64,000 bases of DNA. Source: Trypanosoma brucei (taxonomy: Eukaryota). This document shows, in pieces, positions 20,501-52,734 of the stretch (position 1 is its first letter; each line of letters opens with the position of its first letter). The notes beneath the pieces are model-generated. The model did not search any database. It saw only the letters and a program-made list of their open reading frames with translations, and was not told the origin of the DNA. The translations under genes and the position numbers were made by a program. Location: contig CM000207.1 in NCBI GenBank assembly GCA_000002445.1, forward strand, positions 2,432,001 through 2,496,000, written 5' to 3'.

Positions 20501-20537
<37 letters not shown>

Positions 20538-22410: not shown

Positions 22411-22443
<33 letters not shown>

Positions 22444-23472: not shown

Positions 23473-23508
<36 letters not shown>

Positions 23509-24598: not shown

Positions 24599-25285
24599 TC
24601 ACGATTTTGTGGAACCGAGAATTATACCACCAGGCTTCAAAATCCGCGTTGAATTATCAATAAGATTCTCAGGTGTATCATTCAATGCTTTAGACACTCT
24701 GCACAAAAGCGAAAGCGATCCATATATATCTTCTCCCTTCTGATATTTGTTATCATCAACATGAACGAAACCTTCTGCATTATCATTGTGGAACCCCACT
24801 TCAGTAAGCCACACATCGAAGCAATAAATAACAGCGGGGAAAAGTATGGAGGCATTCAGTTTTTGTCTACCATCACCACTCACACCCATTGCCAATAATA
24901 AATCTCCAATAATCGTTTGACGGATTTGACTTGCATCATCTCCATATTCAAGTCCCATGGGTTTGCAGTAATCTCTCAATGTTCCTACGAAACTTTGATA
25001 ATTCTTAAGCATTTTTGTGCGCCTTTGCTGCTCACTTGAAATGCATTGAAATGTACAAATGTCGGTGGTTTGTTCCACTTCCGTATGTGTGACAGCGCCG
25101 CCACCACCGCTTGAATCCGATGGCGTTTCATTATAAATAAATGTTGTGGGAGGAATAATTTGATCTTCTTTTGATTCCCCAACAAATATGGGACGGTCGT
25201 GAGTGCCAATAAAAAAATGATGTGAAGCTTTATATGATTCAGCCACACAACTCCGCCGGCTCGCATCCTCCGAGTTTCCGTCCAT
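24599..25285 (-). CDS. Hypothetical protein (229 aa from the ATG). The track ORF extends to 25324 through a TTG start within a poly-A/T tract.
   Basis: First ATG is at 25283-25285 (MDGNSEDASRR...). Complex, non-repetitive coding sequence on the minus strand within the minus block. The C-terminal ...ILKPGGIILG weakly recalls methyltransferase motif III, but no motif I is present. Confidence 0.45.
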   Translation of the reverse strand: MDGNSEDASRRSCVAESYKASHHFFIGTHDRPIFVGESKEDQIIPPTTFIYNETPSDSSGGGGAVTHTEVEQTTDICTFQCISSEQQRRTKMLKNYQSFVGTLRDYCKPMGLEYGDDASQIRQTIIGDLLLAMGVSGDGRQKLNASILFPAVIYCFDVWLTEVGFHNDNAEGFVHVDDNKYQKGEDIYGSLSLLCRVSKALNDTPENLIDNSTRILKPGGIILGSTKS

Positions 25286-26717
25286 TTGATTTTTGTTTTT
25301 TTTTATTTTTAAATTATTCCACAAAATTAATTAATCAAAGATATCTCGTTTTATTTTATTTTATTTTATTTTATTTTGTTTTTTTTTATCTTCTCTTTCT
25401 TTTTTGTCTGATTCGATTAACACTCAGTTGTTGCCAAACCTTTTCGTATGCACGTATAATTGCCTTCCTACGCATACGTGCGTGTGTGTGTGTGTGTGTG
25501 TGTGTTTTAAAAATAAAAAATAAAAAGGTAACCGGAGAAGAATTCTCATTTTGGATTCAGTACAAATATATAAATATATATATATATATATAGATAGATA
25601 GATAGACATAAAACTTATTTAAAAAAAAAAGCACAAAGATCAGAGAGCACAAAATTAAAATAAAATAAAATAAAAGCTGTGAAACAAGCACCATGGCTGG
25701 GCACAACTTAAGCACTAAAACACACCAACTGTTGTCGGTAGTGTTGTCTCCCACATAAACACGCACACCGCATAAGCATAAACATAAACACGCATGTGAA
25801 TATATGAGTGTATTTATACATTTATTTATGTTCATATATTTATGTATATTTATTTATTCGTACATTTGCATATTTGTTTGCCTCACTGTACTAAACGAAG
25901 GGGGGCGGGATTTACACCTCCCTTTATTTTATTTCATTAGTTTATACGTCTATTAATCTTCTCCCAAAGCATTTTATTTTCCTCTTTTTTTTTCTTTTCT
26001 CTTATTTTTATTTTTTTTTTTAAAAAAAAACAAACTCTCCTTTTCCCCACTCCTCTCACGTTTATTTGCATTCTTCTGTTTTTAACTAACTATTTCTTAC
26101 TTATTCTTCATATGGTAAATCTTGTCCTTTTTTTTTATGTTTTGTTTGTTTGTTTAATTTCCCCATTTTCCTCCTCTTTCTTTTTTTTTTTTGATATGTC
26201 CAAAAGCAACAAAAACAAACAAACAAAACATAAAAAAAAAGAGCAAACAAGAAGTACAAACAGAAGTGAGGAAAAAAAGAAGAAAAAAAAGCCTTGAGTA
26301 GCACCGTAGGAAAACAAAATAAAGATTAAAAAAAAGAAAAAGAAAAAGAAAACCGATAACAAAAATATGACATTGAGGTTGAGGGAGAATGAAAGGATAA
26401 TTTATTTTATTTATATTTTTTTTAAAAATTCAAAAAGAGAAACTCACAACGAAGTGGAAAACGAAAGGGGGGGGGAAACAGAAGCATCTAATTTTCGGTT
26501 TGTTTTTTGGTTTTTAGTTCTTGGTTTTCGGTTGGATTTAATTAAATCAGAAAGGACATCATCAACATCACAAAAAGCATGTGGGAAACAGTATTCTCCA
26601 AGAAGTGTAAAGGAGAAAGTGGAGAAAAAGGGAGCAAAGAAGGAGGAAAAAAGAAAAAAAGAAAAAAAAGAAAAAAAAAGCGCAATAAGAATACAATTCA
26701 AAAAAAAAAAAATCGAG

Positions 26718-29692: not shown

Positions 29693-29914
29693 CTATACCA
29701 CCTTTTCGATTTTAACTAGGGACATAGAGGCATCTACCAAGTATCGGTTAGCGGTACGTAGCCCAGTCACCTCTGCGCGACATATGGGACACACAGTTGC
29801 AGTTGAAACACAACCTCGGCAAAATATATGCGTACACGGCAATAGTTCTACAGGATCTGACCACTGCTCCAAGCAGATGACGCAAGCCACAACATCAGAG
29901 GCGGGTGCTACCAT
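29693..29914 (-). pseudogene. Inverted partial duplicate of the RING-finger exon of the 40102-41121 gene (73-aa fragment; C3HC4 RING intact, no GTPase part)
   Basis: Encodes MVAPASDVVACVICLEQWSDPVELLPCTHIFCRGCVSTATVCPICRAEVTGLRTANRYLVDASMSLVK, which matches the N-terminus of the 40102 gene at about 98 percent. It diverges after SLVK and terminates. Beyond the duplicated 5' leader it has no upstream polypyrimidine tract plus AG. Confidence 0.7.
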
Positions 29915-29984
29915 TGGTAATGGTGAGAAGGGGACAAGCCCCGGCCGCCAATAAATAGGTGCTAAAAACGCCTTAGGAACCGCT
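29708..29984. repeat. Left arm of the inverted repeat (277 bp, about 98 percent identical). The partner arm is at 40031-40307.
   Basis: The reverse complement of ccggccgccaataaataggtgctaaaaacgccttaggaaccgc (29941-29982) equals 40033-40074. The match continues through the RING coding region to the ctagttaaaat / attttaactag boundary. Confidence 0.85.
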
Positions 29985-31278
29985 ATGGAAGAGAGGGATC
30001 CTCCAACACAAATCTGTGACCGAGTCTCAGCAATTCGTAGATCCAGAGAAGGTGTTTAATTTGAACATAGAAATCCTCCAGCGGTGTCATGAACTTACCC
30101 CCATTTCCACTACATCCATGCGCGGCAGAAGGCACTGATGAAAATTTTTAAAAAGGTAGTGGAGGATGCCATTACACAAGCTCCGGCAGGCGCAACCAAA
30201 TCTGTTGAGTGCAGCATTTCATTGTTTTGCACTTGCCTGTCGACAGCGAGCGTGGACTTGATAGTCATCTCCGATCGTTAGTACACCCAATGCGATCCCC
30301 TTCCTGATTTCCTCCAGTCAACAGTTAGGCCAAGGTGGTGGAAAGTCACCATTCATCGTTACATACAGAGCATGATAGAAAAAAAAAAATGTCCCCTGCA
30401 CACGAAAAAACAATGGCACGGTTGTTTGTTATGTAACCTGACCGTGTGTATATCCCTGTTTACACTCCATTGATGTATTAGCCTTTGTGTGAACCATTAA
30501 CTAGAAGGCGGTGACGGCATATTAAGCAACAAGAAGCATGATAAGATTTTTAATGAGGGAAAGAAAAGGTAAAAGGGAACAACATTATGGTATTGAGGAT
30601 ATAGCGAACATGATGCTCAGTAAATTCAAATATTAAGATAGCTCCACATCAGTTCACCGCACTGCGCAACGCGGTGGTGGGATTCCCACTTTTGTATACA
30701 TCAAGAAATGCAACATTCATAGTGTCGTTATCTGCAGTTGCTCAACAATGAGTGCGCCTTGGCGGACTCATTACCCCCATACAAAGCAAAACGGTAAATA
30801 AACGTAATGTTTTTGTGCCATTGTTCTTTTTTTCTTTTTTTCTTTTTTTCTTTTTCCCCCTCCCCTCGTTTCTCACGCAGTAGGAAGAGTAGCATACACA
30901 TACATACGTGTCAAGGGAAAGTATTTACCACACATAAATGTAGTTCGAATACCTAATATGAACCCATTAGTGATGTTAGTAGGCACGTACATTCGTTTTA
31001 TTGTTTGGCTTCATACGTCCTCATTCTGTATCACCCCACTCGGTCGTGCCTTCAGTTGTAGAGTGACAACATAACCCGGGTATGTTTTTCAAAGTTTAGA
31101 TTGAGCAAAAAAAAAAAGCAAATGGAGACGAGAGTGCAATAAGTGCGCACCCGTAGAAAATATGCAACCACAGAAAGAGCAAGAGTATGTTGAACCATTA
31201 CAAATGTACTGGACGGCAAGGCTCACATGACATGTAATCTGGGATATGGACAACAGTAGTTTCATATAATATACTACA

Positions 31279-32736
31279 TCACATCAAACGATCGACAAAT
31301 TTGTTTAACAGCGGAAAGATCGGCTTCGGGTCCAGTCCGACAGTGATGGTGGCATTCGATACGGACAACAGTAGTCCCGATATATTGAAGGGGAGCCTAA
31401 ATCCATGCGGATCTGCATTAAACAAAGGAAGACCTACCTCATCGAGAAACCGACGGATATCTGTATTTAGAGTCGTTGAGTTCAAACCATCGATAAGCGA
31501 AGTGCCCAGTTCTGTCACTACATCCATAGACGATAACTTCAGGTCTAATGTATTGTTGTCGATGGACATGTGCCTTACATTAGCGGTCAAGTTCACAACC
31601 ATATTCAACACAGTGAATGACACGTTGTCCTCCGATACCATTTCCAGTGTAAAATTACCATTACGTGAGTTGAAAATGAATGCTCCGCCACTAACGGTCT
31701 CCAGCCATGGAGGCGATGGCAACACAGCCGAGACGCCAAAGTTGCATCCACGGCACAACCTGAATAACTCTGGGTACATGGGCTCAATTAGTGAAGAGTT
31801 GTACCTTTCTGGGAGGAGTAGGGAAACATTTAGCATGCTCCAGTTATTGAGCAAGCGGAGTACGTTGTTTGCAGCTCTGTATGAAGAGGTGATACTAACG
31901 CTCCGATATGGAAGTGACTGATCCACTGCAAGAACCTCATCTTGCGACACTACTCGAGACGAGGACTCATCGGAAAAAATACCCATTAAAAGCTCTGCTC
32001 GCTGCTCAGTTATGTTTGGGTCCTTCATGTATATAATGGGGAAACCACGGAATATCTCTTCTGCCTTACTTTGTACGACAGGGTTGATAATACCCGGGAC
32101 TATTCGCTGTAGTTCGTTTTTGATGCTGCCCTTGAAGATATCTATGATTCCGTTGATAAGGTTGTTGAGAAGCTGCATACCTCGAACAGCAACTGTTACA
32201 TTTATTTCTCCAAGTTCAATCATCATATCCCTCACTGTTGCATTGAGCAGACCATCGTTTCTAGCGGATAAGTCCATAGCAAACGATGCATTCGCACCGC
32301 GGATATCGGTAGCGGACGTGCCACTAGGGCACAGAAGCGGCCACCAACAAAGTGGACTGTAATAAAACTTAGTTTTTGGCACACTGGCTGCCATGTCCCA
32401 CACCGAAACCAAAAGTTTATTCGGGCTCTTCAGTTTGAGGGACATGTTTCCAATCGTTATGTTTGATACCTGCATTTCTTCCAGCTTAATACCTTGCACA
32501 CTTTGCTCAGGAACAGTAATGTTTCCGATAAGTTGTCTCAGCACGCGGTGAACCATGGGCACAGCAGAAGTCACGACGGATTCATCAACGGCAAATTTCA
32601 CGCTACCGGGTGCGGAAGACACGGGCGCTTCTCCATACTGAATGCCGTGAACCTGACCGGATGCTGCAACAAAATACGGCGCCAGTACCACGGCGACAAA
32701 AATTACCGTGTATATTAGAGTTGCAGCTCGTTGCAT
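31279..32736 (-). CDS. Secreted, heavily N-glycosylated protein (485 aa), possibly GRESAG5/ESAG5-like with a BPI/LBP lipid-binding fold
   Basis: ATG start confirmed. N-terminal signal peptide (MQRAATLIYTVIFVAVVLAPYFVAASG). About 17 NxS/T sequons. Alternating hydrophobic beta-strand-like pattern, about 480 aa. The GRESAG5/BPI assignment rests on recall of size, glycosylation and subtelomeric context, not on a verified motif. Confidence 0.5.
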   Translation of the reverse strand: MQRAATLIYTVIFVAVVLAPYFVAASGQVHGIQYGEAPVSSAPGSVKFAVDESVVTSAVPMVHRVLRQLIGNITVPEQSVQGIKLEEMQVSNITIGNMSLKLKSPNKLLVSVWDMAASVPKTKFYYSPLCWWPLLCPSGTSATDIRGANASFAMDLSARNDGLLNATVRDMMIELGEINVTVAVRGMQLLNNLINGIIDIFKGSIKNELQRIVPGIINPVVQSKAEEIFRGFPIIYMKDPNITEQRAELLMGIFSDESSSRVVSQDEVLAVDQSLPYRSVSITSSYRAANNVLRLLNNWSMLNVSLLLPERYNSSLIEPMYPELFRLCRGCNFGVSAVLPSPPWLETVSGGAFIFNSRNGNFTLEMVSEDNVSFTVLNMVVNLTANVRHMSIDNNTLDLKLSSMDVVTELGTSLIDGLNSTTLNTDIRRFLDEVGLPLFNADPHGFRLPFNISGLLLSVSNATITVGLDPKPIFPLLNKFVDRLM

Positions 32737-38700: not shown

Positions 38701-40101
38701 TGAACCACAGAAGGGAAATTGAGTAGCGTATTAAAAATTCTTCATGATATGTGTAAGTTCGGCTGGATTATCATCCTACTGAAATCATGTGACATGGATG
38801 ATGTTTGTGATTCGATGTGCTAAGTGTGAGGTGAGGTCATGCCTTGTTGTGTAATACCACATGGACATTCGGTCAATGTTTTTTTTTTTCGAACGGGTTG
38901 AAAAAAGAGCGCTCGCATGCACATCAGGTTTGTAATCACTGCAACGAATGCTTTATTGTGATTGAGAAGCGCGCATTGAGTGGGAGAGTACAACTCTCTA
39001 TCTCTCTCTGTGTGCGTGTGTTATGCGTGCTAAAGTGTATTATGTTCTATAACGGTGTCGATGGTGGCGCTCTGACAGCAGTGTCTATATATCACCGCAG
39101 TGGGTGTTGTGAACACGTGTGTATGTCCTTTGTGTTTTCAACTGAATTGTTGTGTTTGTTAGATAAAACTTTAAGAGTTCGTGTTCCATTAGTTGCACTG
39201 GAGAACTTCTCTAGCAATCGATGAAAGCGGTGATGTTGCTTGATTTCAAATGCTCATGCGACCAATGTGGAGCATTCGGTTGAGAAATGAAATACCCTTT
39301 TGTTTCTCTGTTTCTGGTGTGTAAAAACGCAGTGTGCTTACGGTGTCTCCTCGTGCCTCCTTTGTCTTTGCAAAAAAAAAAAAGACGTTGCACTTGACTT
39401 GTTTCCGGTTTTTGGCACATGTTGGGTTGAGAGTGAAAAGTAATGGGTAACTGGATATATCTTCCTTTTTTATCTAGGGGGGAAAAACAACTGTATGCGA
39501 GGGGGCTTAGTGTTATTATTTCATTGGAAAGTGGTTGACGGGTACTTGCCGGCGTGTGGTGCAAATTGTTTCCTTGCATAGTGCTGGGTGTAATCAGTGG
39601 TGGTATTTTTTTTTCCAAATGACGGGTGTGCACAAGGAACGAGTAGTAAGAGTGAAATACGGAGGCATGAGGTTCAGTGGAGCTAAAACTGTGCAGAAAT
39701 TGCTATTGGTCACTACGCCTATGAATTTTAAATGCTCAACTGGTGGGGGTACGGCGCAGGACTCGTGTATTCACTACCCCAAAAAGGTCCCACGAGGGGC
39801 CAACAACAGTGCTTGGAGGTCCGTTGGCGTCTTGTGGAACTCCGAATACACGGATTATGTGCCAAGTAATTTGTACAGTCGATATCTTTGTTTTTAGCCG
39901 CGAGTGCCGAGGCTTGGTCGTTGCGCATGTGCCAACAATCCGGTGGAGCAGCTATGAGCTGCGATACAGGCGCGTGCTTGCGTGCCACATCACTTCCCCC
40001 TTATTTGCCATTTTTTAATTACATAACTAATAGCGGTTCCTAAGGCGTTTTTAGCACCTATTTATTGGCGGCCGGGGCTTGTCCCCTTCTCACCATCACC
40101 A
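32737..40101. promoter_or_regulatory. Divergent strand-switch region, a candidate RNA pol II transcription start region. It lies between the minus-strand gene ending at 32736 and the plus-strand gene starting at 40102.
   Basis: Gene orientation flips here. There is no convincing ORF across 7.4 kb. The region contains GT-rich and G-homopolymer elements, gtgtgtgtgtgt followed by G14 at 34375-34388 and G13 at 38644-38656. In T. brucei, GT-rich elements mark transcription start regions. Confidence 0.4.
39991..40033 (+). promoter_or_regulatory. Polypyrimidine tract plus AG, a putative trans-splice acceptor for the RING-Rab gene
   Basis: cacttcccccttatttgccattttttaatt at 39991-40020 is followed by taAG at 40030-40033, about 70 nt upstream of the ATG at 40102. 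Confidence 0.5.
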
Positions 40102-40307
40102 ATGCCAGCACCCGCCTCTGATGTTGTGGCTTGCGCCATCTGCTTGGAGCAATGGTCAGATCCTGTAGAACTATTGCCGTGTACGCATATATTTTGCCGA
40201 GGTTGTGTTTCAACTACAACTGTGTGTCCCATATGTCGCGCAGAGGTGACTGGGCGACGTACCGCTAACCGATACTTGGTAGATGCCTCTATGTCCCTAG
40301 TTAAAAT
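40031..40307. repeat. Right arm of the inverted repeat (partner of 29708-29984). It covers the 5' leader and the RING-finger coding region.
   Basis: See the left arm. Confidence 0.85.
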
Positions 40308-41121
40308 GAAGGAACGGGATGAAAAGGCACGCGAGGAGGCGGAAAAATTGCTAAATGAAGTCATCGAGCAATCACAGGGGAAAATGTATAAGCCTACCGC
40401 GGCTGCCGGTGTGGGAGTTAACACACAGCCGCACAACCGGCGGATGAGGGTGGAAACGCTAAGAAGCACGCCTGATTATATTTTTAAGATTATACTCGTC
40501 GGTGATAGTTATGTTGGGAAGACCCGATTCTTGAAGAATCTCGTTGGTGCTATCGGCTTCGGGGATCAATGCGTCACCACCCTCAGCGTTGATGTCGTTA
40601 ATCATTACGTTATCGTTGATGGAAAGACAGTTCAGGTTTTAATGTATGATACTTGCGGCCAGGAACGTTTCCGAGCCATGACAGCACAGTTCTACCGTGA
40701 CGCCCACGGTGCCATAATGGTGTACGACACCACTCAAATTGGGAGTTTCGACAATATCGAAGTGTGGTTCTCGCAGCTCAACAGTTTTGGTTGTGAAAAT
40801 ACGAGCAAAATACTTGTCGGAAATAAATGTGATCTCCCCGAAAGAAGGGCCGTTGAAATTGGGCGGGCCAGAGCCCTGGCCGACAAACTGGGCGTTCCCT
40901 TTATAGAAACGAGCGCAATGACTGGTGCCGGAGTTGCCGTAGCAGTTGAGGCCTTAGTGAGAATGATTATGAGACAACAACCTGTTCCACTAGCCAGCCA
41001 ATGGGCAGGCAGTAAAAGCGGACATAGAAATGCAGTCAATTTGGAAAGACCCCGCCGGGAGAACGGCACCGGCAGACGGTCTGAGAGGAGCCAGAGAAAT
41101 GATAATTGTTGCTGCCAATAA
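40102..41121 (+). CDS. RING-finger (C3HC4) / Rab-like small GTPase fusion protein (339 aa) with a C-terminal CCCQ prenylation-type motif
   Basis: ATG start. RING spacing C-x2-C-x12-C-x-H-x2-C-x2-C-x6-C-x2-C (CAICLEQWSDPVELLPCTHIFCRGCVSTTTVCPICR). GTPase G1 GDSYVGKT, G3 DTCGQE followed by RFRAMTAQFYRDAHGAIMVYD (Rab-family RFRS/YYRGA signature region), G4 GNKCD, G5 ETSAM. Ends ...NDNCCCQ. Confidence 0.8.
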   Translation: MPAPASDVVACAICLEQWSDPVELLPCTHIFCRGCVSTTTVCPICRAEVTGRRTANRYLVDASMSLVKMKERDEKAREEAEKLLNEVIEQSQGKMYKPTAAAGVGVNTQPHNRRMRVETLRSTPDYIFKIILVGDSYVGKTRFLKNLVGAIGFGDQCVTTLSVDVVNHYVIVDGKTVQVLMYDTCGQERFRAMTAQFYRDAHGAIMVYDTTQIGSFDNIEVWFSQLNSFGCENTSKILVGNKCDLPERRAVEIGRARALADKLGVPFIETSAMTGAGVAVAVEALVRMIMRQQPVPLASQWAGSKSGHRNAVNLERPRRENGTGRRSERSQRNDNCCCQ

Positions 41122-41532: not shown

Positions 41533-42720
41533 ATGCAGTGTCTCCGCTTCGTCGATGGTAAAAAGTGTTCAGTCAACACAGTGGGTGCATCCCTTTCTGC
41601 AGTGGCATGCGTGGTGGCGTTTATAGCCTTCATTGCTGAAATTAATTCTGAGGGTTGGCAATATAGGGGGAAGGTATGGTTAGATGCACCAACTAGTCGG
41701 CGAGTCCCATTTAGGAATCCGAGAGTCATTTTTGTTGTTGTTCAGACCCGACCCTCTCCAGGTTGGTGCAGAATGTTGATGACTGCTGTTGTCACGAATG
41801 TTTCTGTAATTTCTATTGGTATGGGTGGGAATTACAGTCACACCATCCGGGCAAACTGGTTATTGAACTTCTTGGATGATGAGGGTCTCCATGATGATGA
41901 TGTGTTAGTTATGTTTGATGGTGCGGACACATTCTTCACTGATGAGATCAATCGAAAAGAGATGCTAGACCCGTTCATAAAAATGTCTCCCCCACTGCCC
42001 AAATTCTTTAACCAAACGGCTATATACAGAGGTGACGCTTGGCCGCCCATGCTTCACATGGCAGAACCAGATTGTTATGCTCCCCAGTTGAACATCACAT
42101 ACAACCCGCAAAATGAGTCGCATTGGGATCGATGCGCAAGGTTTTACGCCATGGGCCTGTCAGAAGCGAAAACATTCGGTGCTGAGCGGCTTCTGGGGTT
42201 GCCACCTCCCGTGCGTGGACACCTCAACAGTGGAGGAATTGTGGGCCGGGTATGGGCGTATAAAGAGGCCTTTAATGTCTATTTAAAGTTCAGGGAGACA
42301 TCCTCTAAATGGTGGTGCGATCAGACCATGTGGACAATACTTTTCATTTGGAGCGCAGGAAATGCAACGGGTGTGGATCCCAAATACATAATACGGCGTG
42401 GAATAATTAGTCTTGACTATGACAAGAGATACTTTTACTACCCAACAGCGGCGTACAACACGCGTGCGATGATCGGCCACTTCACAGGAAATCCCCACCA
42501 GTGGTTACGGTATCTCCCGAAGTACTTTACTCGCCTTCCTTGGTATAGGAACCTTGCGGGAAACAGTACCTACAGGCAGAGTGTCGTGGAAGCATTACGA
42601 AATACGACCGTCATAACTTACAAATACACCCGGGAGAAGGTTTTGAAAAGTTATGAGGATGTCTGCAACGTTGAAGAAATGACCGACCCCGACTTCGTGG
42701 TCGACCCACTGGATAAGTGA
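41533..42720 (+). CDS. Type II membrane protein, putative glycosyltransferase-like (395 aa)
   Basis: ATG start, with a polypyrimidine tract plus AG upstream (ttgatttcttttattgatgttcctgtgcttctcctcccct). N-terminal signal-anchor (SLSAVACVVAFIAFIA). Luminal domain carries an acidic DxD-like motif (HDDDVLVMFDGADTFF) and several NxS/T sequons. The GT family was not identified. Confidence 0.45.
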   Translation: MQCLRFVDGKKCSVNTVGASLSAVACVVAFIAFIAEINSEGWQYRGKVWLDAPTSRRVPFRNPRVIFVVVQTRPSPGWCRMLMTAVVTNVSVISIGMGGNYSHTIRANWLLNFLDDEGLHDDDVLVMFDGADTFFTDEINRKEMLDPFIKMSPPLPKFFNQTAIYRGDAWPPMLHMAEPDCYAPQLNITYNPQNESHWDRCARFYAMGLSEAKTFGAERLLGLPPPVRGHLNSGGIVGRVWAYKEAFNVYLKFRETSSKWWCDQTMWTILFIWSAGNATGVDPKYIIRRGIISLDYDKRYFYYPTAAYNTRAMIGHFTGNPHQWLRYLPKYFTRLPWYRNLAGNSTYRQSVVEALRNTTVITYKYTREKVLKSYEDVCNVEEMTDPDFVVDPLDK

Positions 42721-45700
42721 CGAGTGGTGGATTTTTACTACACGCAGCGAGTAGTGGTTGGTTGAGGGGCAAATATCCAGCTGCCCAGCTGACACGTCCT
42801 TATTTTAGGTGGTACTATGCGGATCATCATGAATTACGCCCTTTAATGGCGCCTTGGTGTTGTTGTTGTTCCTTATCCTTTAAATAACATGAAGATTAAC
42901 GGGCTCAAGAGGGGAATAGTAGGAAAAAAGCTGCGGTGAAGGGTGAAGGCCCCATCTGCAGTGAATAAAAGCGTATACGGCCCCATGTGGCACCGTACAT
43001 TTTCCAGGTAATGGAAACGTTCTGTATATATTACTCGAGGCGCTAATTGTGCACGGTACGTTTGCCCACGCGTAAAACCTTCATTTTTGCATTTGAAGAG
43101 GGGGGAATCGCATCTTTATCCCTTTCCTCCTATCTTCCTTCCTTCCTTCCTCCTCCGCACCGTAAAACGAAATATAGTTAATCAAACAAGTCACTGTTAA
43201 CCACTTTTAACTAGTGACACGAAAGAGAGCGCCACGAGGTGAGGAATGAAATGATATAAAGGTGGTGTAAGACCTCCTTGTTGGGGCCCACATGTAGGGA
43301 AAAGATAAATGAATGGTGGTGAAAAGCATTAACGGGCGAAGGTTGTTTGCATCATCTTTATTGCTACCAAAAGGAAACCGCTCCATGGGTGCATGCGCCA
43401 ATGGTGTGTATTCCGGTGATCTGCCGCCGCATCTCGCCCCTCACTGGAGCAAACTTCACCTTCCCTTTTGCGTCCCCTTCCCTTTTTTTTATTTTTTCTC
43501 TGTTTTCCTTTATTTTTTTTAATGCCCTGAAGCATCATAACAACTGCGGTGCCTTCAACATTCGTTTGTAGACGGCCAGGTGGACAGCCCACTTCGTGTG
43601 AGAGTGAAAGGGACGGAGAAGAAAGGCTTCACAAGCAACACATCCTAATCGTATATGTTTTCCTTCGATTTTGAGTTAAAAAAGGGCTGTGTTGTTGTAG
43701 CCGCAGTAGCGAATTCGTTAATGTCAGCCACCCGTTAGTGCGCCAAGCAACTCATCACCGGAAAATTGCTGCCCTGAGCGGGATAAACGATGCATAAAAT
43801 CAAGAGGAAGGTTTAGTGCCCAACGCATGGGACATTGTATGGGTATTTGCTACACATAGCTCTTCAAGGTTCGGCCAAGCGCCGTAATTATTTCCATGCA
43901 CTTACAGACTTTTTAAAAGGGTCGCACATGTCCATCATTACATCACACACACTGTGCTCAAACATCTTAGTTGGTGGGTTGTTCGGCTGACGACGATCGC
44001 TGTTATCGTTTGGGATACGTCCACACCGCTAGCGTATTTTGCATGCGCCAGAAGTGACACGTACACGATAATGTAAAAAAACGTGGCTCTTCGGCTTGAG
44101 TTATTCGCCTTCACTTTGAGGGTCACTTTCGCTTGCTTACTGCTGACCCCGTCTTGCTTTGGCGTGCTAAACTCAGCCCCTGGGCCCACCTTATAAGCAA
44201 AACAACTTTATATTTGCGCGGTCGACCCCTTTGTCACCACCACTTCCGCCGCGACGTTTCACCCTTCCGTTTCAATTGAATGTACGCAGTCACTTTGTTT
44301 CGTAACTCCGGAGAGTCATTTCATTTCATAGGCAGCCGCCTTGACGAAGTCGATTATATGTGTGTTGGTGTGTGTGTGTGTGGAAAGGCGATCCGTTGTG
44401 TTGGATACTTACTGGTTTGCGTTCTAGTACGCCGGCGGCAGAGTCTGCGGCTCCATTTAACCGCGACTTTCTCACGTCCTGAACAATGGTCCGTTTTTCC
44501 AGGTTCCGTCCATCAAGGTTTTGGGTGCTAAAAAATTTCGCTTCCTTGAGTGTCATTTTCCTTTGGGTAGTGTGTCCTGTGGTTTGTTTGTTTGCTCGCC
44601 TCCCTTTTCTTTCGCCTCGTGCTCCTCAACGGACATTTAACTCGTTCACACTTCAGTGATATCATTTTGGGGGGCTTTTGCTTGACTCAGTAGGCGCAAC
44701 TCCCTCCCCTCCCGCAAGATCCACCGCCCAATATTCCTCTAGGTTCCTCCTTTTTTTTTTGCTTAACTCCCTGTCATCCACCGCAGTTCCCTCTCTTTGT
44801 GCATTGTATCCACCACTTCATTAAATGTTTACCACTCCTGCGGGAATGGCATCGGTGCCGCCATCCGGTTTTCCTGCCATTTTCAATGACTCAGTTTCAG
44901 ATGCTAGTGGGCATCTTCCGCGTTGATTTAAACACCTTCCATGTTGAAGAACTTGTTCAGAAAGTGTATTCCACGTCCTTTTGAAATGGCGATGTTCCCG
45001 TGACCGCAGTATTACTCACCTTGTATTCTTCATATAACGCGATTCGTTTCAATAGACGAATCGATACATTTGGGGCCAAGGTGACGGCTACCACCGCACT
45101 CTGTGGTGATGTTCGGTAAAGCATCCGATGCGGTAGTTGCGCTGAAAATTGTGGAACGCGGGCTCGCCATGGTTCCGAATACGCTTAAGAGCCTTCACCG
45201 TGGCGGCACTGTGCGAGCTCTAACAAGAAAATTCCAAAAAAAAAGGAATTTTGCTCATTGAAGGAACCGTTGCGTTGCTGATTGATGGTTGACGGAAGCG
45301 GGTTCTGTTGTGAGGGAAAGCAAGGGCATGAATGAGGAAACCGTGAGGCAGACATTTGGAAAGGAATGGGTGTGGGTCGTTGGCGGTGCCACGGAGTAAA
45401 GGGTTTGAGCCTGCGAGGAAATAAGACGAGCGGAAGAAGGAAGGCGTAACGAATGTTGTGGCTGGCGGTTTGAGGGGTGAGCAGACGCCTTCCACACGTA
45501 CATGCATGAACACCGGTGTTGGCAAAAGAGGGAGGTGTTTTCAGCGGTGCAGCTGCACGGCCCGGAACATTGTCGTCAGGGAAAGAAGCAGCCTTCTTTA
45601 TTTCGTCTTCCGTTGACAAGAGCGGCTTAATGTTTAGAAACATGCGGTTCACGACAATGTCAAGTAGTATCGAGGCGGAAGCCTGACTCGACAGGGGCAA

Positions 45701-48583: not shown

Positions 48584-50032
48584 TTACTGTGACTCATCTT
48601 TCGGGAGAGCCGAATTGACACCCAGGGCACACATACATCCAGCAAAGATACCAAACAGCAGTGAACTAACGGCCCAGTTGGCTGCTAGAGAACGTTCGCC
48701 AGCGGTCGTCAGCGAACCAGTACGCGGCGCGTAGACTCCCGCTAGACCCCCCACGTAGCCATACGTGAGCGACCAGAGGAAGCAAAGAATATAAGGGAAT
48801 GTCGTGCCCTTAATCACACTGTATGCGCAAAGCACAATTGGAATGACGAGCAACAAACGCGCAAACGTCCCAATCACCACAAAGAGCGGTGATGCGTGCA
48901 GAGTCTTGAACTGAACGAAAAGGCGCGCCACAAAATCTCCCAAGTTAAACATCATCGGAATGATCACCATATACCAGCCGTTGTCATCCGGCCCCAGTTT
49001 GACAGCAAAGAATACACCAGGGTAGATGAGGAAGGCGGTAAAGAACGCAATAAAGCACACGGCTAACATGGGCCAAACACGCCTGAACACAGACAACGCA
49101 CTCGCCTTCAACATCTGTTGCGAGTTCGTGATATTCTCAACCTGGTCCGTGTCCCTCATCGTGTCAGGGTCTACAGTGGAAGTCATCACGTTGCTCTTGC
49201 CCGCGTTGCAATCCGCTTTCAAATCGTCATCCTGGTCGGCCGGACCCTTTCCTAAGCTACTCGGTTCATTATCATCTCCAGCGTCATCACCTTCAACAGC
49301 ATTCCCTTTCCTCGCCGCGTAACGAAAGTCTGCTGTATACTTCATGGCGTAAGGGTTCTTCCTCAGCAGCAGCAGAAGACCACAAGAAATCGACTGCATA
49401 ATCATGACCAACCCAAAGTATATGCGTGACTGAGTGAGCCTACTCGCGACGCGGTCTTCTGTACGCTTGAAGTTACTCTCCGTGGAAGCTTTAATAACAA
49501 TCGCAAACGTCGACGTGATAACACCACACACTGAAACACCCCACACGTACGCACTCAAAAACTTCGTTGGAAAGGGACCGGCAAGTGCAACGGCACCGGA
49601 GCTGCAAAGTGCAGTGGAAGCTCCGTTTATCAAACCAATCAGTATAATGGTTACCCTGGCACCGGTTTCCGTTGTTTTTCCGATGGTAACCATCATCACA
49701 GAAAATACTAAGATAATCGGAAAGACAAGACCAATATAGAGGCGAAGGGTTATGGGAATCCGCTTTCCAAAGTTTGTGAGCATCAGTGACACTACCAAAC
49801 ACTCCACAATAAACGTCGTCGCAAGATAGTACGTGAAGACATTTTTCCAGAAAAATTTCTGCTCTTCCGTCTCCAGCTTGATGTTCTCGCCATCCTTGGC
49901 CGCGAAAAGGTAGAACTGGAGGAAGAACTCCAGGAACGACAAGACCGTGTTCGACACCACCATCACCGACATCCCAAAACACATGAAGGTGATATAGGCA
50001 AGGAGTTCATGCACAGAACCGAAGCCAAGCAT
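48584..50032 (-). CDS. Equilibrative nucleoside transporter (ENT) family protein, trypanosome NT/AT1-like (482 aa from the ATG)
   Basis: Multi-pass membrane protein with about 11 predicted TM segments. A large central hydrophilic loop (KGNAVEGDDAGDDNEPSSLGKGPADQDDD...) lies between TM6 and TM7, as in ENTs. The N-terminus MLGFGSVHELLAYITFMCFGMSVMVVSN and the C-terminal PRTGSLTTAGERSLAANW resemble trypanosome NT-family transporters. The track ORF start at 50068 is a TTG. The first ATG is at 50030-50032. Confidence 0.7.
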   Translation of the reverse strand: MLGFGSVHELLAYITFMCFGMSVMVVSNTVLSFLEFFLQFYLFAAKDGENIKLETEEQKFFWKNVFTYYLATTFIVECLVVSLMLTNFGKRIPITLRLYIGLVFPIILVFSVMMVTIGKTTETGARVTIILIGLINGASTALCSSGAVALAGPFPTKFLSAYVWGVSVCGVITSTFAIVIKASTESNFKRTEDRVASRLTQSRIYFGLVMIMQSISCGLLLLLRKNPYAMKYTADFRYAARKGNAVEGDDAGDDNEPSSLGKGPADQDDDLKADCNAGKSNVMTSTVDPDTMRDTDQVENITNSQQMLKASALSVFRRVWPMLAVCFIAFFTAFLIYPGVFFAVKLGPDDNGWYMVIIPMMFNLGDFVARLFVQFKTLHASPLFVVIGTFARLLLVIPIVLCAYSVIKGTTFPYILCFLWSLTYGYVGGLAGVYAPRTGSLTTAGERSLAANWAVSSLLFGIFAGCMCALGVNSALPKDESQ

Positions 50033-52734
50033 CCTTCCAATTTCAGCCAGCACACCTTTGAGTAACAACTAACCTTCTACGAAGCAAGGTGAAAGGGCAA
50101 GAAAAATGGTCATACATGTCGATATTACCATTTATCACATTAGCATGCCTCTCCTAAAGAAAAAAAACGTTTCAAGCATTAGACACAAAGCGTTCCCCCC
50201 GTGTATACGCTTAACGACCGTTAACTTTGAAGTTTTACCCACGATCGCACGTGTAATCCTCGGGAATTTTAGTCAACCTTTCTAACAAATATCGGTACTC
50301 ACAATTCATATTGCTTAAGTCCTCTAAACGCTCTCTTCGACTACAACTCATTTTACATTTGGTAAAACTGTAGGGAAAATTACACATGATACTAAAATAT
50401 TTGTTAAATCATCGGTATTAATGAAAAAAAAAATTAAGACAAGTATATTGAAAGACACATATATGTATAGAGTAGGGGTAGGCGTATACTGTGAATATAC
50501 CCTGGACAACAAGTCTTTACTTTCTTAAAGTTTTGTGTCCCTTTCCCCCACCCCAGCACACACCACCCTTGTGCGCAGCCATTTCAGCCATTTGACGTTT
50601 CTCTTGTGTTCTGTCCCTTCAGTAGGTCCCCCTTCCACATCCACATACACCTGCAGTCCCCTCTGCTAATGTTTGCCCACACGCAACCGTTGTAAAAGTG
50701 GGAGGTTTAATTGCACCAACACTCTCGCTTGAAAGATTCACTAGCAGGAAGAAATATCGAGCCCCAGACCGTTACCATTTCCACTCATGTCCTGTAACTC
50801 TTTCTCAGAAATACAAGTGCCTCGAACGTACGTGCCTTCAGTGCTTCTAACTCCACATACCGCCATCACAACCACCACCCCCAACTCCTCTGTAACCTTT
50901 TCGCAGATACTCAGAAATAAATCTTCAGGTGCTGACGCTCTATCCACATGTGTTATCTTCACCAGCTTGGGGCATTCTCTGCGACACAGCACTTCCAGCT
51001 TCTTGTGATTTCCCCCAAAATATTTGATACTCAGCAGTTATTTCCGTTAGGTTCAGCCAGAGTTTCCTTAAATTTGGCAGATTGCACATCATTTTCAACC
51101 CCTTGGTAACCTTGGTGGAGCCCCTCAACGACAATTTTTTTGAGGGTGGCCATTTTTTTTTTTTTGAGATAGTTACTTGTGCTTCTTATACGCACTTATA
51201 AAACACACCGGTGTTAGGTCTCGATCTTCTCGCGTTTTCGTTGACTGACCGAGTGACTGTATTCCTTTCCATGCATTGCTCTGTGAGGTGAAGTCCCCTT
51301 GTTGTTGTAGCGCGAGGGTAACGCATGAAGCGGTGAGTTTTTTTTAATCGTTTTTATACCAACGAGGAATGCAACTTTACGTTTGTATTCATCAGCACAT
51401 GGGCGGATTATACCAACTTCATTCGAGTTACCCCATCTTTATATATATATATATATTTCGCTACGTGTGAGCAACCTCCGAAATTTGAGGGTTCTTTGGA
51501 TATGTGATAGCTTCAAATGCGCTATTACTAACGTGGACTAATTTTACCTAGGATCGTAGTTTTTTTTTTGATTTCCCCCCCCCCCTGCGTTTCTAGCCCC
51601 ACTTACCCTCACAACTCCTTCAGTCCATCACACTCAAGTAAATGAGCAGATGACTCGTCCCGGCGCCCAGTTGTCAATTTGCTTCAAACGTTCTTCCAAC
51701 CCCGGCAGTGCACCATCCTTATTTTGCATACACAAGTTATCAGGCATTTCCTCACCCACCCCCTTATCAAATGTGCGGTTACACCTGAAACGGCTTCTTT
51801 CTGTCTTGTTATTGTTGTTTTAAGCAAAATGTACGCCTATGTTTTCTGTTGTATTGCTTTCCCAGTGCTTGATGGAATCCAATGCTCCAAAACAACGTAC
51901 GGAAACACCCTACACCGCTTTACAGTGTTTTGGGACGGTGGACAGATTCTTTCTTGCAAAAATATTCGTATAAAGAGTATTATTACTATTTCCCCCCGAG
52001 TGCCCCTGTGGAACTGTGTGTGATTACTGCATGGTAGTCGCCTGCTAATTAATGACAGGATTACCAATTTCCCAGAGGGGGCGCGGAGTCGTAACTACAT
52101 TGTGGAAAAAGTACTAACCCGTAAAAATACGGTAGGAGAGATGATCAGCACCGCAGTGTTTTGTACGGGTATCCAAACTTCCGAAGACCTTTGCATTCCC
52201 TGGGAATTTTGTTAACTACCCAAAACCACAGGTGGGTGAAGGGAAAAAAAAAACAGACTCACATACCCAAGCCGTTTTATACCTTTGTTATATTACTTTG
52301 TGCCACAGGCAAAACGTTAGTTACAAGCCATTGTTACCTTTTCCATCAATTACATCATTGTGGTATCAGCAGTCTGCAATTAATTTTCCTGAAGCGCACT
52401 GTCTGAATTTTCGTTTGCCAGCGCCTATTAAAGCGGTGCTATAACACCGGCACCGCGTACGGCTATACGTAGCGGCATTCGAGAGCCTTGTTTTTTGTTC
52501 ACGGGTTTGACAGGGCTGGACACTCACATAAATTCTTTAATTAAAGCATAAGGTGCTTTGCGTCCTCGTTGATTTCGTTAGACAGTGGACGCGACATATT
52601 CCCCATGTACTTCACAGCAAAAAACATCATTTCGCCAGGCGCCTCCGTGAATATCAGCGATGGCACCACAAACACACACGCACACACAGAGACAGAACAC
52701 TCCACAGTCGCTTGTATAACTTGGGGTCAAGTGG

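What the first reader, a model, noticed from the sequence alone, without database searches (positions are those of the whole stretch)
40102..41121. Unusual domain architecture: an N-terminal C3HC4 RING finger fused to a Rab-like GTPase that ends in CCCQ
Residues 10-46 form a canonical RING (C-x2-C-x12-C-x-H-x2-C-x2-C-x6-C-x2-C). An acidic coiled-coil-like linker follows (KMKERDEKAREEAEKLLNEVIEQ). Then comes a complete small-GTPase domain with all five G boxes (GDSYVGKT, T in switch I, DTCGQE, GNKCD, ETSAM). It has the Rab-family signature RFRAMT...FYRDAHGAIMVYD and a C-terminal double/triple-Cys prenylation-type motif (NCCCQ). A single polypeptide would therefore be both a putative E3 ubiquitin-ligase module and a membrane-anchored, nucleotide-switchable Rab. 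I have not seen this pairing described for kinetoplastid Rabs. The Ala-to-Cys change in switch II (DTCGQE) and Tyr in the P-loop (GDSYVGKT) are also non-standard. In a subtelomeric context next to ESAG8-like (RING+LRR) remnants, the RING may have been acquired by exon or domain shuffling.
Basis: seen in the sequence. Interest (0 to 1): 0.8.

Follow-up and report, generated by a model that had tools for sequence, protein, structure and literature searches.

The report
RING finger fused to trypanosome "Rab1B"
The trypanosome gene known as Rab1B, always treated as an ordinary transport GTPase, has an open reading frame that starts 63 codons earlier than annotated and adds a ubiquitin-ligase-type RING finger, a fusion found only in the Trypanosoma brucei group and not yet shown to be made as a protein.

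Summary
Window 40102-41121(+) is one uninterrupted 339-codon ORF. It encodes a C3HC4 RING (res 11-45, Pfam E ~1e-8), a predicted long helix (53-92), a complete Rab-type GTPase (129-290, Pfam Ras E 6.5e-42, best PDB match Rab1A) and a C-terminal CCCQ.

The gene is not new. It is Tb927.9.15930 / Tb09.244.2070 on T. b. brucei TREU927 chromosome 9, called "Rab1B" in the literature, and a published array probe matches it exactly. The TREU927 model starts at Met64 (276 aa), so the RING went unremarked there. The gambiense and equiperdum models carry all 339 aa.

The fusion is collinear in four independent assemblies, so it is not an assembly artefact. No other protein recovered from 1.84 billion cluster representatives pairs this Rab with a RING, so it looks Trypanozoon-specific and is not a true Rab1 orthologue.

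The ESAG8-shuffling idea is not supported: the nearby LRR remnants are LRRP and have no RING. A 278-bp copy of the RING segment lies 10 kb away and ends five codons after Met64.

Translation of the RING is likely but unproven. E3 activity and GTP gating, by analogy with TRIM23 and Rab40, are inferred only.

The parts
39993..40033 (+). Candidate trans-splicing signal: a polypyrimidine-rich tract (CTTCCCCCTTATTTGCCATTTTTT) followed by the first AG at 40032-40033, 69 nt upstream of Met1. Inferred, not mapped.
   Evidence: Read from the sequence. A second pyrimidine tract at 40078-40100 is followed by an AG at 40107-40108, just inside the ORF, so sequence alone cannot settle which site is used.
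40102..41121 (+). Full 339-codon ORF (RING - helix - Rab GTPase - CCCQ, plus stop). This is Tb927.9.15930 / Tb09.244.2070, 'TbRab1B'.
   Evidence: Identity to EAN77398.1 from Met64. The array probe for Tb09.244.2070 matches 40577-40643 with 0 mismatches.
40132..40236 (+). C3HC4 RING finger, residues 11-45, with IAP/zf-C3HC4_3-like short second loop (C-x2-C-x6-C-P-x-C-R). Ile13 and Pro43 sit at the usual E2-contact positions, and Arg46 follows the last Cys at the 'linchpin' position.
   Evidence: The roles of Ile13, Pro43 and Arg46 are inferred from established RING-E2 structures (RNF4, BIRC7, TRIM21), not tested.
40258..40377 (+). Predicted long alpha-helix, residues 53-92, acidic/basic with hydrophobic residues at 3-4 spacing (L59, A62, L66, M69, A76, A80, L83, V87). 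Possibly a dimerising coiled coil.
   Evidence: AF2 secondary structure H53-92, pLDDT 55-70. The heptad reading is my inspection.
40291..40293 (+). Met64, the start codon used by the TREU927 annotation (276-aa product without the RING).
   Evidence: Between Met1 and Met64 there are four out-of-frame ATGs, at 40121, 40152, 40233 and 40283.
40486..40971 (+). Rab-type small GTPase domain, residues 129-290. G1 GDSYVGKT (40501-40524), switch I Thr160, G3 DTCGQE (40648-40665), G4 GNKCD, G5 ETSAM.
   Evidence: AF2 pLDDT is 80-97 over most of the core, with a low-confidence stretch at residues 152-161.
40972..41118 (+). Hypervariable tail, residues 291-339, ending in CCCQ (41107-41118). This is a prenylation-type Cys motif.
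   Evidence: homologues end in CC, CCS, CCSS or CXC. Lipidation was not tested.
40030..40307 (+). The segment of the gene that is duplicated elsewhere in the window: 72 nt of 5' flank plus codons 1-68.
29709..29986 (-). Copy B: a 278-bp duplicate of 40030-40307 (97.5% identical, sharp borders). It lies within a stand-alone 73-aa ORF, 29693-29914(-), that encodes the RING + 'MSLVK' + IEKVV-stop. Not annotated under that sequence.

Best explanation
This is the real, expressed T. brucei gene known as Rab1B (Tb927.9.15930). It is mis-modelled in the TREU927 reference. Its most likely product is the full 339-aa protein: an N-terminal RING-HC finger, a helical and possibly dimerising linker, a divergent Rab1-like GTPase and a C-terminal CCCQ lipid-anchor motif. 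It is a lineage-specific chimera of the T. brucei group (Trypanozoon) rather than an orthologue of eukaryotic Rab1. It sits in a cluster of ESAG-related genes (ESAG5-type upstream, ESAG3 immediately downstream) and its mRNA is higher in bloodstream forms.

Proposed mechanism (inferred). The Cys tail is prenylated and anchors the protein on an endomembrane. The Rab domain's nucleotide state controls where and when it is on that membrane or which partners it binds. The RING recruits an E2~ubiquitin to modify nearby proteins or itself. That would make it a self-contained GTPase-coupled E3, working like TRIM23 (RING + ARF) or like Rab40 (Rab + SOCS box recruiting Cul5). Tyr137 at the Ras Gly13 position and Cys185 at the Ras Ala59 position, together with replacement of the Rab hydrophobic triad (F to V165, W to Y182, Y to F197), suggest an altered GTPase cycle and non-canonical partners.

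Shown: the ORF, both domains, the gene identity, the lineage restriction and presence in four assemblies. Inferred: initiation at Met1, prenylation, E3 activity and GTP gating.
For: ORF and domains. Gene identity: the residues from Met64 to the stop are the exact sequence of EAN77398.1 on the 3,057,547-bp TREU927 record, and the neighbours are exact matches to EAN77394 (ESAG) and EAN77399 (ESAG3). The published Tb09.244.2070 'Rab1b' probe is at 40577-40643, and Rab1B = Tb927.9.15930 in 10.1101/2024.11.27.625582.

Expression: Rab1b probes were 3.5-7x higher in bloodstream forms, and Rab1B is among the more abundant small-GTPase mRNAs (PMC2443814).

Not an artefact: the same 1020-nt ORF with no indel is found in TREU927, T. 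b. gambiense DAL972, T. equiperdum OVI and T. b. equiperdum, whereas the 700 nt of flanks carry several indels. All eight zinc ligands and all G-box residues are intact in every copy.

Met1 start. There are five ATGs before or at Met64, four of them out of frame. A scanning ribosome on an mRNA that includes this region would therefore meet Met1 first. For the chromosome-5 paralogue Tb927.5.4590, the ribosome-profiling study places the region equivalent to Met1 inside the mapped 5'UTR. The ATG spacing of 181 nt and the 18-nt ORF match the window exactly. That UTR reaches at least 114 nt upstream of the Met1 equivalent and has both mRNA reads and ribosome footprints (PMC4210626 suppl. 5).

Lineage restriction. 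phmmer against 1.84e9 representatives gave only the brucei-group cluster at full length (756 bits). The next hits were multi-Rab or Rab1-like proteins, and none of the 272 fetched proteins outside the brucei group has a RING.

Precedent: TRIM23 is a RING E3 fused to an ARF GTPase, and ARF-family members have been recruited repeatedly into ubiquitin circuits (PMC8358228).
Against: There is no direct evidence here for the splice-acceptor site or for peptides from residues 1-63 of the chromosome-9 gene. The TREU927 annotators chose Met64. A pyrimidine tract right before Met1 is followed by an AG just inside the ORF (40107-8), which, if used, would remove Met1.

Selective constraint is weak or unmeasurable. 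Pairwise dN/dS is about 0.5-1 for the whole gene, based on only 6-17 differences per pair, and intact zinc ligands across so few substitutions are not significant.

Two other TREU927 loci (Tb927.5.4590, Tb05.5K5.230) are pseudogenes, and the gene is confined to one species complex. Both facts are compatible with a young gene that may be dispensable.

AF2 did not fold the RING (pLDDT ~30), although with only four near-identical sequences and no zinc this says little. The changed hydrophobic triad may impair REP/GDI recognition and hence Rab-type geranylgeranylation. A PCF RNAi screen of all Rabs that included Rab1B did not report it among the autophagy or lethal hits. No E3 activity, localisation or bloodstream-form phenotype is known.
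Confidence: 0.55

Rival explanations
1. Only the 276-aa Rab from Met64 is made, as in the TREU927 annotation. The RING-coding stretch is then an untranslated or only incidentally translated 5' leader: a relic of a recombination that placed a RING gene fragment in front of a Rab-like gene.
For: The TREU927 models EAN77398.1 and CAJ16188.1 start at Met64. The ribosome-profiling study treated the equivalent region of the paralogue as 5'UTR with 'uORFs'. The 278-bp RING segment behaves as a separable recombination unit whose right border (40307/8) is five codons past Met64. An AG at 40107-8 after a pyrimidine tract could exclude Met1.
Against: Reaching Met64 would require leaky scanning past Met1 and/or four out-of-frame ATGs. 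The RING is in frame, intact and canonical in four genomes. The gambiense and equiperdum annotations use Met1. Footprints are present upstream of the annotated start in the paralogue. A 60-residue non-Rab leader would still need explaining.
Confidence: 0.25
2. The fusion ORF is an evolutionarily young, effectively neutral chimera produced by recombination in a repeat- and ESAG-rich chromosome region. It may be transcribed and even translated, but it has no selected function as an E3-Rab and is on the way to pseudogenisation like its paralogues.
For: It is restricted to the T. brucei group. dN/dS is near 0.5-1, and substitutions are as frequent in the CDS (2.5%) as in the 5' flank (3%). Tb927.5.4590 and Tb05.5K5.230 are pseudogenes. 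A truncated RING fragment lies nearby. 29 positions that are at least 85% conserved in Rab1-like proteins are changed, including W182, which is invariant in 42 of 42.
Against: There are no indels or stops in 1020 nt in four genomes, while the flanks and paralogues have them. Every catalytic or ligand residue of both domains is retained. The mRNA is abundant and stage-regulated. The Rab core alone shows lower pN/pS in several pairs (0.1-0.2).
Confidence: 0.17
3. The RING-Rab junction is a chimeric assembly artefact.
Against: The identical junction and collinear flanks (97.6-99% over 2.7-13 kb) are present in four independently produced assemblies.
Confidence: 0.01

Closest known systems
TRIM23 / ARD1 (metazoan RING-B-box-coiled-coil E3 fused to an ARF GTPase)
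   Same: One polypeptide carries an N-terminal RING E3 module, a helical/coiled-coil spacer and a C-terminal small GTPase of a membrane-traffic family. It is a lineage-specific offshoot of a core GTPase paralogue (PMC8358228).
   Different: The GTPase here is Rab-type (Pfam Ras E 6.5e-42 versus Arf 1e-6), not ARF. There are no B-boxes. Membrane anchoring would be by a C-terminal Cys motif rather than an N-terminal helix or myristate. It occurs in trypanosomes, not metazoa, so the origin is clearly independent.
Rab40 (Rab with a C-terminal SOCS box that recruits Cullin-5/Rbx2) and RhoBTB (Rho with BTB domains recruiting Cullin-3)
   Same: A Ras-superfamily, prenylated traffic or cytoskeleton GTPase is physically coupled to ubiquitin ligation. 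This comes from my own knowledge of these families; Rab40 appears only in search listings.
   Different: Those proteins are substrate adaptors for a separate cullin-RING enzyme. Here the RING itself is part of the GTPase polypeptide and sits at the N-terminus.
Eukaryotic Rab1/Ypt1 (and T. brucei Rab1A, Tb927.8.890)
   Same: They are the best sequence matches (human Rab1A, Ypt1, plant RABD, Leishmania Rab1). G1-G5 are complete, Gln187 is retained, RabF3-F5-like motifs are present (RFRAMT, FYRDA, MVYDTT), and the C-terminus carries a Cys motif.
   Different: Identity to Rab1s from any lineage, including Leishmania, is only about 34-48%. 29 near-invariant Rab1 positions are changed, including the switch I IGVDF motif (LSVDV here), W182Y, A185C and G137Y. 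There are 128 extra N-terminal residues with a RING. No orthologue was found outside the T. brucei group. The name 'Rab1B' therefore overstates the relationship.
IAP/MDM2-type RINGs (Pfam zf-C3HC4_3: BIRC7, cIAP, XIAP) and TRIM21/RNF4 RINGs
   Same: The same C3HC4 ligand pattern, a short C-x2-C-x6-C-P-x-C-R second half, and Ile after the first Cys pair. E values to solved RINGs are 1e-8 to 1e-5.
   Different: No BIR, B-box, SPRY or SIM modules are present. The similarity is generic to RING-HC domains and does not identify a donor gene.

Membership tests
RING-HC (C3HC4) zinc finger / RING-type E3 ligases | Eight zinc ligands in the cross-brace spacing C-x2-C-x(9-39)-C-x(1-3)-H-x(2-3)-C-x2-C-x(4-48)-C-x2-C | tested here: met
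   C11, C14, C27, H29, C32, C35, C42 and C45 are present and invariant in all four genomes and in copy B.
RING-HC (C3HC4) zinc finger / RING-type E3 ligases | Significant match to curated RING profiles | tested here: met
   Five Pfam RING families score above their gathering cut-offs. Matches to PDB RINGs reach E 1e-8.
RING-HC (C3HC4) zinc finger / RING-type E3 ligases | E2-binding and activating residues: hydrophobic residue after Cys1-x, Pro before Cys8-x, and a linchpin Arg/Lys after Cys8 | tested here: met
   Ile13, Pro43 and Arg46 are present. The assignment is by analogy with RNF4, BIRC7 and TRIM21 alignments, so their function is inferred.
RING-HC (C3HC4) zinc finger / RING-type E3 ligases | Zinc binding, RING fold and E2-dependent ubiquitin transfer | not testable with these tools
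   AF2 gave pLDDT ~30 for residues 1-59 with a 4-sequence alignment and no metal, which is uninformative. Biochemistry is needed.
Rab family of small GTPases | Complete G domain with G1-G5 motifs, including the catalytic Gln | tested here: met
   GDSYVGKT, T160, DTCGQE (Q187), GNKCD and ETSAM are present. Pfam Ras matches 1-161/162 at E 6.5e-42. AF2 pLDDT is 80-97 over most of the core.
Rab family of small GTPases | Closest to Rabs rather than Ras, Rho, Arf or Ran | tested here: met
   All 60 best PDB matches are Rabs or Ypt. Arf scores only 1e-6.
Rab family of small GTPases | RabF motifs and hydrophobic triad (IGVDF, KLQIWDTAGQE, RFRSIT, YYRGA, LVYDIT; F/W/Y triad) | tested here: inconclusive
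   F3-F5 are recognisable (RFRAMT, FYRDA, MVYDTT). F1 is LSVDV, and F2 has Y for the invariant W and C for A. All three triad residues are replaced.
Rab family of small GTPases | C-terminal double-Cys geranylgeranylation motif after a hypervariable tail | tested here: met
   The protein ends in ...NDNCCCQ after a ~45-residue tail, and homologues end in CC, CCS, CCSS or CXC. Whether it is modified by RabGGTase/REP, or by farnesyltransferase as a CaaX-like box ending in Gln, was not tested.
Rab1 subfamily (orthology to Rab1/Ypt1, as the name 'Rab1B' implies) | High identity to Rab1 across eukaryotes and presence of orthologues in related lineages | tested here: not met
   Identity to Rab1s, including Leishmania Rab1, is 34-48%. 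No orthologue outside the T. brucei group appeared in searches of 5.8e9 and 1.84e9 sequences. 29 near-invariant Rab1 positions are changed.
TRIM family / TRIM23 | RING followed by B-box(es) and coiled coil; ARF-type GTPase in TRIM23 | tested here: not met
   There is no B-box Pfam hit and the GTPase is Rab-type. Only a helix at 53-92 follows the RING. The resemblance is in how it may work, not in membership.
ESAG8 (RING + LRR) as donor of the RING | Specific sequence similarity of this RING to the ESAG8 RING, or an ESAG8 remnant with a RING nearby | tested here: inconclusive
   The nearby LRR ORFs are LRRP (87% and 83% identical to the named LRRP and 'paraflagellar rod component' entries). Only LRR Pfam domains are present, and no RING occurs in any frame of 57600-61100. 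ESAG8 sequences were not retrieved, so no direct alignment was made.

The most novel reading that the evidence does not exclude
TbRab1B is a Trypanozoon-specific, bloodstream-stage-enriched, membrane-anchored E3 ubiquitin ligase whose RING activity is gated in cis by its own Rab nucleotide cycle. It would be the first self-contained RING-Rab enzyme. It arose by fusion in an ESAG-associated gene cluster and acts on surface or secretory-pathway cargo of the mammalian-stage parasite. The ligases that mark trypanosome surface proteins for turnover are, to my knowledge, still unidentified.
Probability: 0.2. Interest if true: 0.8.

Novelty: new variant of a known kind. Interest (0 to 1): 0.5.

Why it matters
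T. brucei is usually credited with 16 Rabs, and Rab1B is assumed to be a second ER-to-Golgi Rab1. If the 339-aa product is real, three things follow.

1. One of those 16 is not a Rab1 paralogue in the usual sense. It is a species-complex-specific RING-Rab chimera. The reference annotation (Met64 start) and any reagent built on it, such as N-terminal tags or recombinant protein, would miss a whole domain.

2. It would be an independent, protist example of a small GTPase wired directly to ubiquitin ligation, so far best known from TRIM23, Rab40 and RhoBTB. It would be simple enough to test how nucleotide state controls a RING in cis.

3. Its position between ESAG5- and ESAG3-type genes and its higher expression in bloodstream forms make it a candidate for a parasite-specific function in the mammalian stage.

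If instead the RING is not translated or the gene is neutral, the finding reduces to an annotation note and an example of domain shuffling in recombinogenic regions.

Tried and rejected
1. A homology search with the N-terminal 141 aa alone returned nothing, not even the 98%-identical brucei-group cluster. It is uninformative about the RING's relatives, and I count it as a wasted search.

2. I tried to fetch ESAG8 through the window's LRR ORF. It returned only LRRP-type proteins, so no ESAG8 RING alignment was possible.

3. dN/dS across four genomes is underpowered, with only 6-17 differences per pair. It neither demonstrates nor excludes constraint on the RING.

4. AF2 on a 46-sequence alignment gave a confident Rab core but an unfolded RING, because the alignment is only 4 deep there. 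I did not run fold searches because they would only re-find Rabs.

5. Splice-site data were not obtainable. The Nilsson 2010 supplements hold only partial tables, the Kolev 2010 supplements lack the gene, and no Siegel 2010 supplements are held. The Jensen 2014 table is cut before the chromosome-9 rows. Parsons 2015 and Ackers 2005 are not held.

6. Retroposition as the origin of copy B is rejected. Copy B starts at ATAG, the candidate acceptor site, but no spliced-leader sequence precedes it.

7. Wider homology around copy B was not found. Only the 278 bp match.

8. Whether copy B exists in other genomes could not be settled. The T. equiperdum locus ends at window-equivalent 30393, and the gambiense flank limit also falls short.

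9. I considered KSRabX4, the 'T. brucei-specific duplication' in PMC5399786, as the identity of this gene. It is described as two neighbouring copies with orthologues in other species, which does not fit this gene.
Full report

Yes. Window 40102-41121 on the + strand is one ATG-initiated ORF of 339 codons.

- **RING.** The first 70 residues match solved RING domains of RING1B/BMI1, RNF4, TRIM21, TRIM25 and BIRC7 at E 1e-8 to 1e-5.
- **GTPase.** Residues 129-290 match the whole Pfam Ras model at E 6.5e-42. All 60 best PDB matches are Rab or Ypt proteins, led by human Rab1A.
- **Quoted motifs.** GDSYVGKT, Thr160, DTCGQE, GNKCD, ETSAM and the terminal NCCCQ are all there.
- **Unusual residues.** I aligned the protein with 42 Rab1-like homologues. 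Tyr137 is unique, since the others have G, S, A or N. Cys185 replaces an Ala found in 41 of 42.
- **Structure prediction.** AlphaFold2 gives a confident Rab core (pLDDT 80-97 over most of it) and a helix over residues 53-92 at moderate confidence. The RING was not folded, but only four near-identical sequences cover it and no zinc is modelled, so this says nothing either way.

**2. What gene is it?**

Exact-sequence look-ups place the window on T. b. brucei TREU927 chromosome 9. The neighbouring ORFs are EAN77382 (atypical VSG), EAN77387 (RHS), EAN77394 (an ESAG protein that fits ESAG5 Tb927.9.15890) and EAN77399 (ESAG3). The peptide from Met64 to the stop is EAN77398.1, "small GTPase, putative".

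- The 67-mer array probe published for Tb09.244.2070 "Rab1b" matches window 40577-40643 without a mismatch.
- A 2024 preprint gives Rab1B as Tb927.9.15930.
- Other papers place ESAG5 Tb927.9.15890, ESAG3 Tb927.9.15940, nucleoside transporter Tb927.9.15980 and an ESAG4 pseudogene Tb927.9.16010 around it. This matches the order of ORFs in the window.

So the ORF is the gene counted as one of the 16 T. brucei Rabs. It is assumed to act with Rab1A and Rab2 in ER-to-Golgi transport. Koumandou et al. found its probes 3.5-7-fold higher in bloodstream forms. They listed Rab1B among the more abundant small-GTPase mRNAs and stated that there was no experimental information on it.

**3. Why was the RING not noticed?**

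Both TREU927 protein entries (EAN77398.1, CAJ16188.1) are 276 aa and begin at Met64. The T. b. gambiense (CBH14914.1), T. equiperdum (SCU71839.1) and T. b. equiperdum (RHW66998.1) entries are 339 aa and include the RING. None of ten full-text searches found a paper that mentions a RING on this protein or a RING-Rab fusion in any organism. The library does not hold most subscription-journal papers, including Ackers et al. 2005.

**4. Is the fusion an artefact?**

No. The 1020-nt ORF is collinear and free of indels in four independently produced assemblies. The 700 nt of flanks compared alongside carry several indels. Collinearity with gambiense extends over 12.9 kb at 97.6%, and with T. equiperdum OVI from window 30.4 to 49 kb.

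**5. How widely is it distributed?**

- In a word-indexed search of 5.8 billion proteins, the only full-length hit was the brucei-group cluster. The next hits were plant, Leishmania and other Rab1s, covering only the Rab half at 37-48% identity.
- An exhaustive phmmer scan of 1.84 billion cluster representatives gave the same picture. The brucei-group representative scored 756 bits, followed by multi-Rab-domain proteins at 325 bits or less, then Rab1-like proteins.
- None of the 272 proteins fetched has a RING pattern apart from the brucei-group sequences.
- An orthologue at 50% identity or more would have outranked the plant Rabs. One below 50% would have been its own representative.

I conclude that the RING-Rab gene is confined to the T. 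brucei species complex in current databases and is not an orthologue of Rab1. It differs from Rab1-like proteins at 29 positions that are at least 85% conserved in them. These include switch I (IGVDF becomes LSVDV), the invariant Trp (Y182), and all three residues of the Rab hydrophobic triad.

**6. A second RING copy**

A regular-expression scan of all six frames found a second, nearly identical RING on the minus strand.

- It belongs to a 278-bp duplicate (29709-29986) of window 40030-40307. The copies are 97.5% identical and have sharp borders.
- The duplicated unit comprises 72 nt of 5' flank and codons 1-68. Its right border is five codons past Met64.
- Copy B lies within a stand-alone 73-aa ORF that is not in the protein collection.
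- At residues 39 and 52 it carries Ala and Leu, as gambiense and equiperdum do, rather than the TREU927 chromosome-9 states.
- No spliced-leader sequence precedes it, so it is not a retrocopy.

The RING-plus-leader segment has therefore moved as a unit by recombination. The data cannot say whether copy B is a broken-off 5' end of a Rab1B copy or a relic of the donor.

**7. Other copies in TREU927**

The array paper's oligo table calls Tb927.5.4590 and Tb05.5K5.230 "Rab pseudogene" and lists Tb09.v4.0017 as cross-hybridising. CAJ16188.1 may be Tb09.v4.0017, but that is my inference.

**8. Is the RING translated?**

This is the key open point.

*Sequence signals are ambiguous.* A pyrimidine-rich tract at 39993-40018 is followed by AGs at 40032, 40044 and 40054, which would give a 5'UTR of about 50-70 nt before Met1. 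A second tract directly before Met1 is followed by an AG at 40107-8, which would remove Met1.

*Two arguments favour Met1.*
- Between Met1 and Met64 there are four out-of-frame ATGs, at 40121, 40152, 40233 and 40283. Initiation at Met64 would be inefficient on any mRNA that includes this region.
- The Jensen et al. ribosome-profiling supplement lists six "uORFs" in the mapped 5'UTR of the paralogue Tb927.5.4590. The spacing between its uORF3 and uORF5 start codons (181 nt) and the length of uORF5 (18 nt) match window ATGs 40102 and 40283 exactly. So uORF3 is the Met1 equivalent.
- In that paralogue the Met1-equivalent ORF is open for only 60 nt, consistent with the pseudogene flag. The 5'UTR reaches at least 114 nt further upstream.
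- Both mRNA reads and ribosome footprints are recorded there. They are highest in the second triplet of libraries, which is slender bloodstream forms by the order given in the file's metadata.
- Reads may cross-map between paralogues, and the rows for the chromosome-9 gene were lost when the file was truncated in storage.

I put the probability that the 339-aa protein is made at about 0.65.

**9. Selection**

Pairwise Nei-Gojobori estimates rest on only 6-17 differences per pair. They give pN/pS of roughly 0.5-1 for the whole gene, lower in some pairs for the Rab core (0.1-0.2) and highest in the tail. Variable sites are about as frequent in the CDS (2.5%) as in the 5' flank (3%). Constraint is therefore weak or simply not measurable at this divergence. 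On the other side, an intact ORF, intact zinc ligands and intact G boxes persist in four genomes, while two paralogous loci have decayed.

**10. Mechanism (inferred)**

*RING.* It has the features of an active E3: Ile13 and Pro43 at the canonical E2-contact positions, and Arg46 immediately after the last Cys, the linchpin position in RNF4, BIRC7 and TRIM21. This rests on established structural knowledge and the alignments. The helix that follows could provide the dimerisation that many RINGs need.

*Rab domain.* It keeps everything needed to bind and hydrolyse GTP, including Gln187. Tyr137 lies at the position of Ras Gly13 and Cys185 at Ras Ala59. Both positions influence exchange, GAP sensitivity or the switch II transition in other GTPases, so an unusual cycle is plausible.

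*CCCQ tail.* It fits Rab CCX/CCXX motifs. It could alternatively be read as a CaaX-like box ending in Gln.

*Model.* Together these predict a membrane-anchored E3 whose location or activity depends on its own nucleotide state. It would work like TRIM23 (RING + ARF; PMC8358228) or like Rab40 and RhoBTB, which recruit cullin ligases (my own knowledge). It is not a member of any of those families: there is no B-box, no ARF-type domain and no SOCS or BTB domain.

**11. The ESAG8 idea**

The LRR ORFs at 59504-61017 are 83-87% identical to entries named LRRP and "paraflagellar rod component". Those entries have only LRR Pfam domains. No RING or RING remnant occurs in any + strand frame of 57600-61100, nor anywhere else in the window except copy B. 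The RING's similarity to solved RINGs is generic. The proposal is therefore unsupported here. It is not strictly refuted, because no ESAG8 sequence could be obtained.

**12. Verdict**

- The gene is already known as TbRab1B, and the full-length model already sits in two sister-taxon annotations.
- New here: (a) the reference model omits a bona fide RING; (b) the protein is a Trypanozoon-specific chimera rather than a Rab1 paralogue shared with other trypanosomatids; (c) the RING segment exists as a separately duplicated unit.
- Function as a GTPase-coupled E3 is a reasonable but untested hypothesis, and a neutral or partly untranslated chimera remains a serious alternative.

I rate it a new variant of a known kind (GTPase-E3 fusions), with interest 0.5.

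Noticed in passing
window 29693-29986 (-): A 278-bp duplicate of the 5' end of the Rab1B gene (leader + codons 1-68, 97.5% identical). It lies within an unannotated stand-alone 73-aa RING-only ORF and sits about 1.3 kb downstream of the ESAG5-type gene on the same strand.
   Followed up: partly
window 41533-42720 (+) and 31279-32736 (-): Intact ESAG3 (EAN77399, 395 aa) lies 412 bp downstream of Rab1B, and an ESAG5-type gene (EAN77394, 485 aa) lies upstream. Neither has a Pfam hit. On chromosome 5 the paralogue ID Tb927.5.4590 is directly followed by ESAG3 Tb927.5.4600, so the Rab1B-ESAG3 pairing appears to be part of a duplicated block.
   Followed up: partly
L004 11748-13559 (T. equiperdum OVI contig CZPT02001742.1): Relative to TREU927, the T. 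equiperdum contig carries an extra, divergent ESAG3-like segment (76% identical to window 41677-43488) between Rab1B and the collinear ESAG3 region. This indicates a local tandem duplication or rearrangement right after the gene.
   Followed up: no
window 59504-60133 and 60151-61017 (+): Two adjacent LRR ORFs (209 and 288 aa), separated by a frame break, match LRRP-family proteins. One relative is annotated 'paraflagellar rod component' in T. b. equiperdum. This is probably a disrupted LRRP pseudogene rather than ESAG8.
   Followed up: partly
window 20000-26000: A markedly AT-rich stretch (GC 0.26-0.33 versus about 0.42-0.49 elsewhere) with only trivial tandem repeats (an AAT run at 22937-22987). 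Its nature was not determined.
   Followed up: no
window 1761-3185 and 10233-11654 (+); 15587-17359 (-); 48584-50068 (-): Two VSG_B-type 'atypical VSG' genes, an RHS protein gene (DUF7578 + RHS_N + RHSP) and a nucleoside transporter (probably Tb927.9.15980). Coding strands alternate several times across the window, so Rab1B and ESAG3 form a short same-strand pair between oppositely oriented neighbours.
   Followed up: no
Tb927.5.4590 (not in window; PMC4210626 supplementary file 5): In the chromosome-5 pseudogene copy, the Met1-equivalent ATG opens only a 60-nt ORF, and an ATG near the Met64 equivalent opens only a 78-nt ORF. Footprints and mRNA reads are still recorded there. Some published 'Rab1B' expression signal may therefore come from pseudogene transcripts, or chromosome-9 reads may be cross-mapped to it.
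   Followed up: partly
tool behaviour: The word-indexed homology search with the N-terminal 141 aa returned no hit at all, not even the 98%-identical cluster found with the full-length query. Negative results from that tool for short queries should not be trusted.
   Followed up: no
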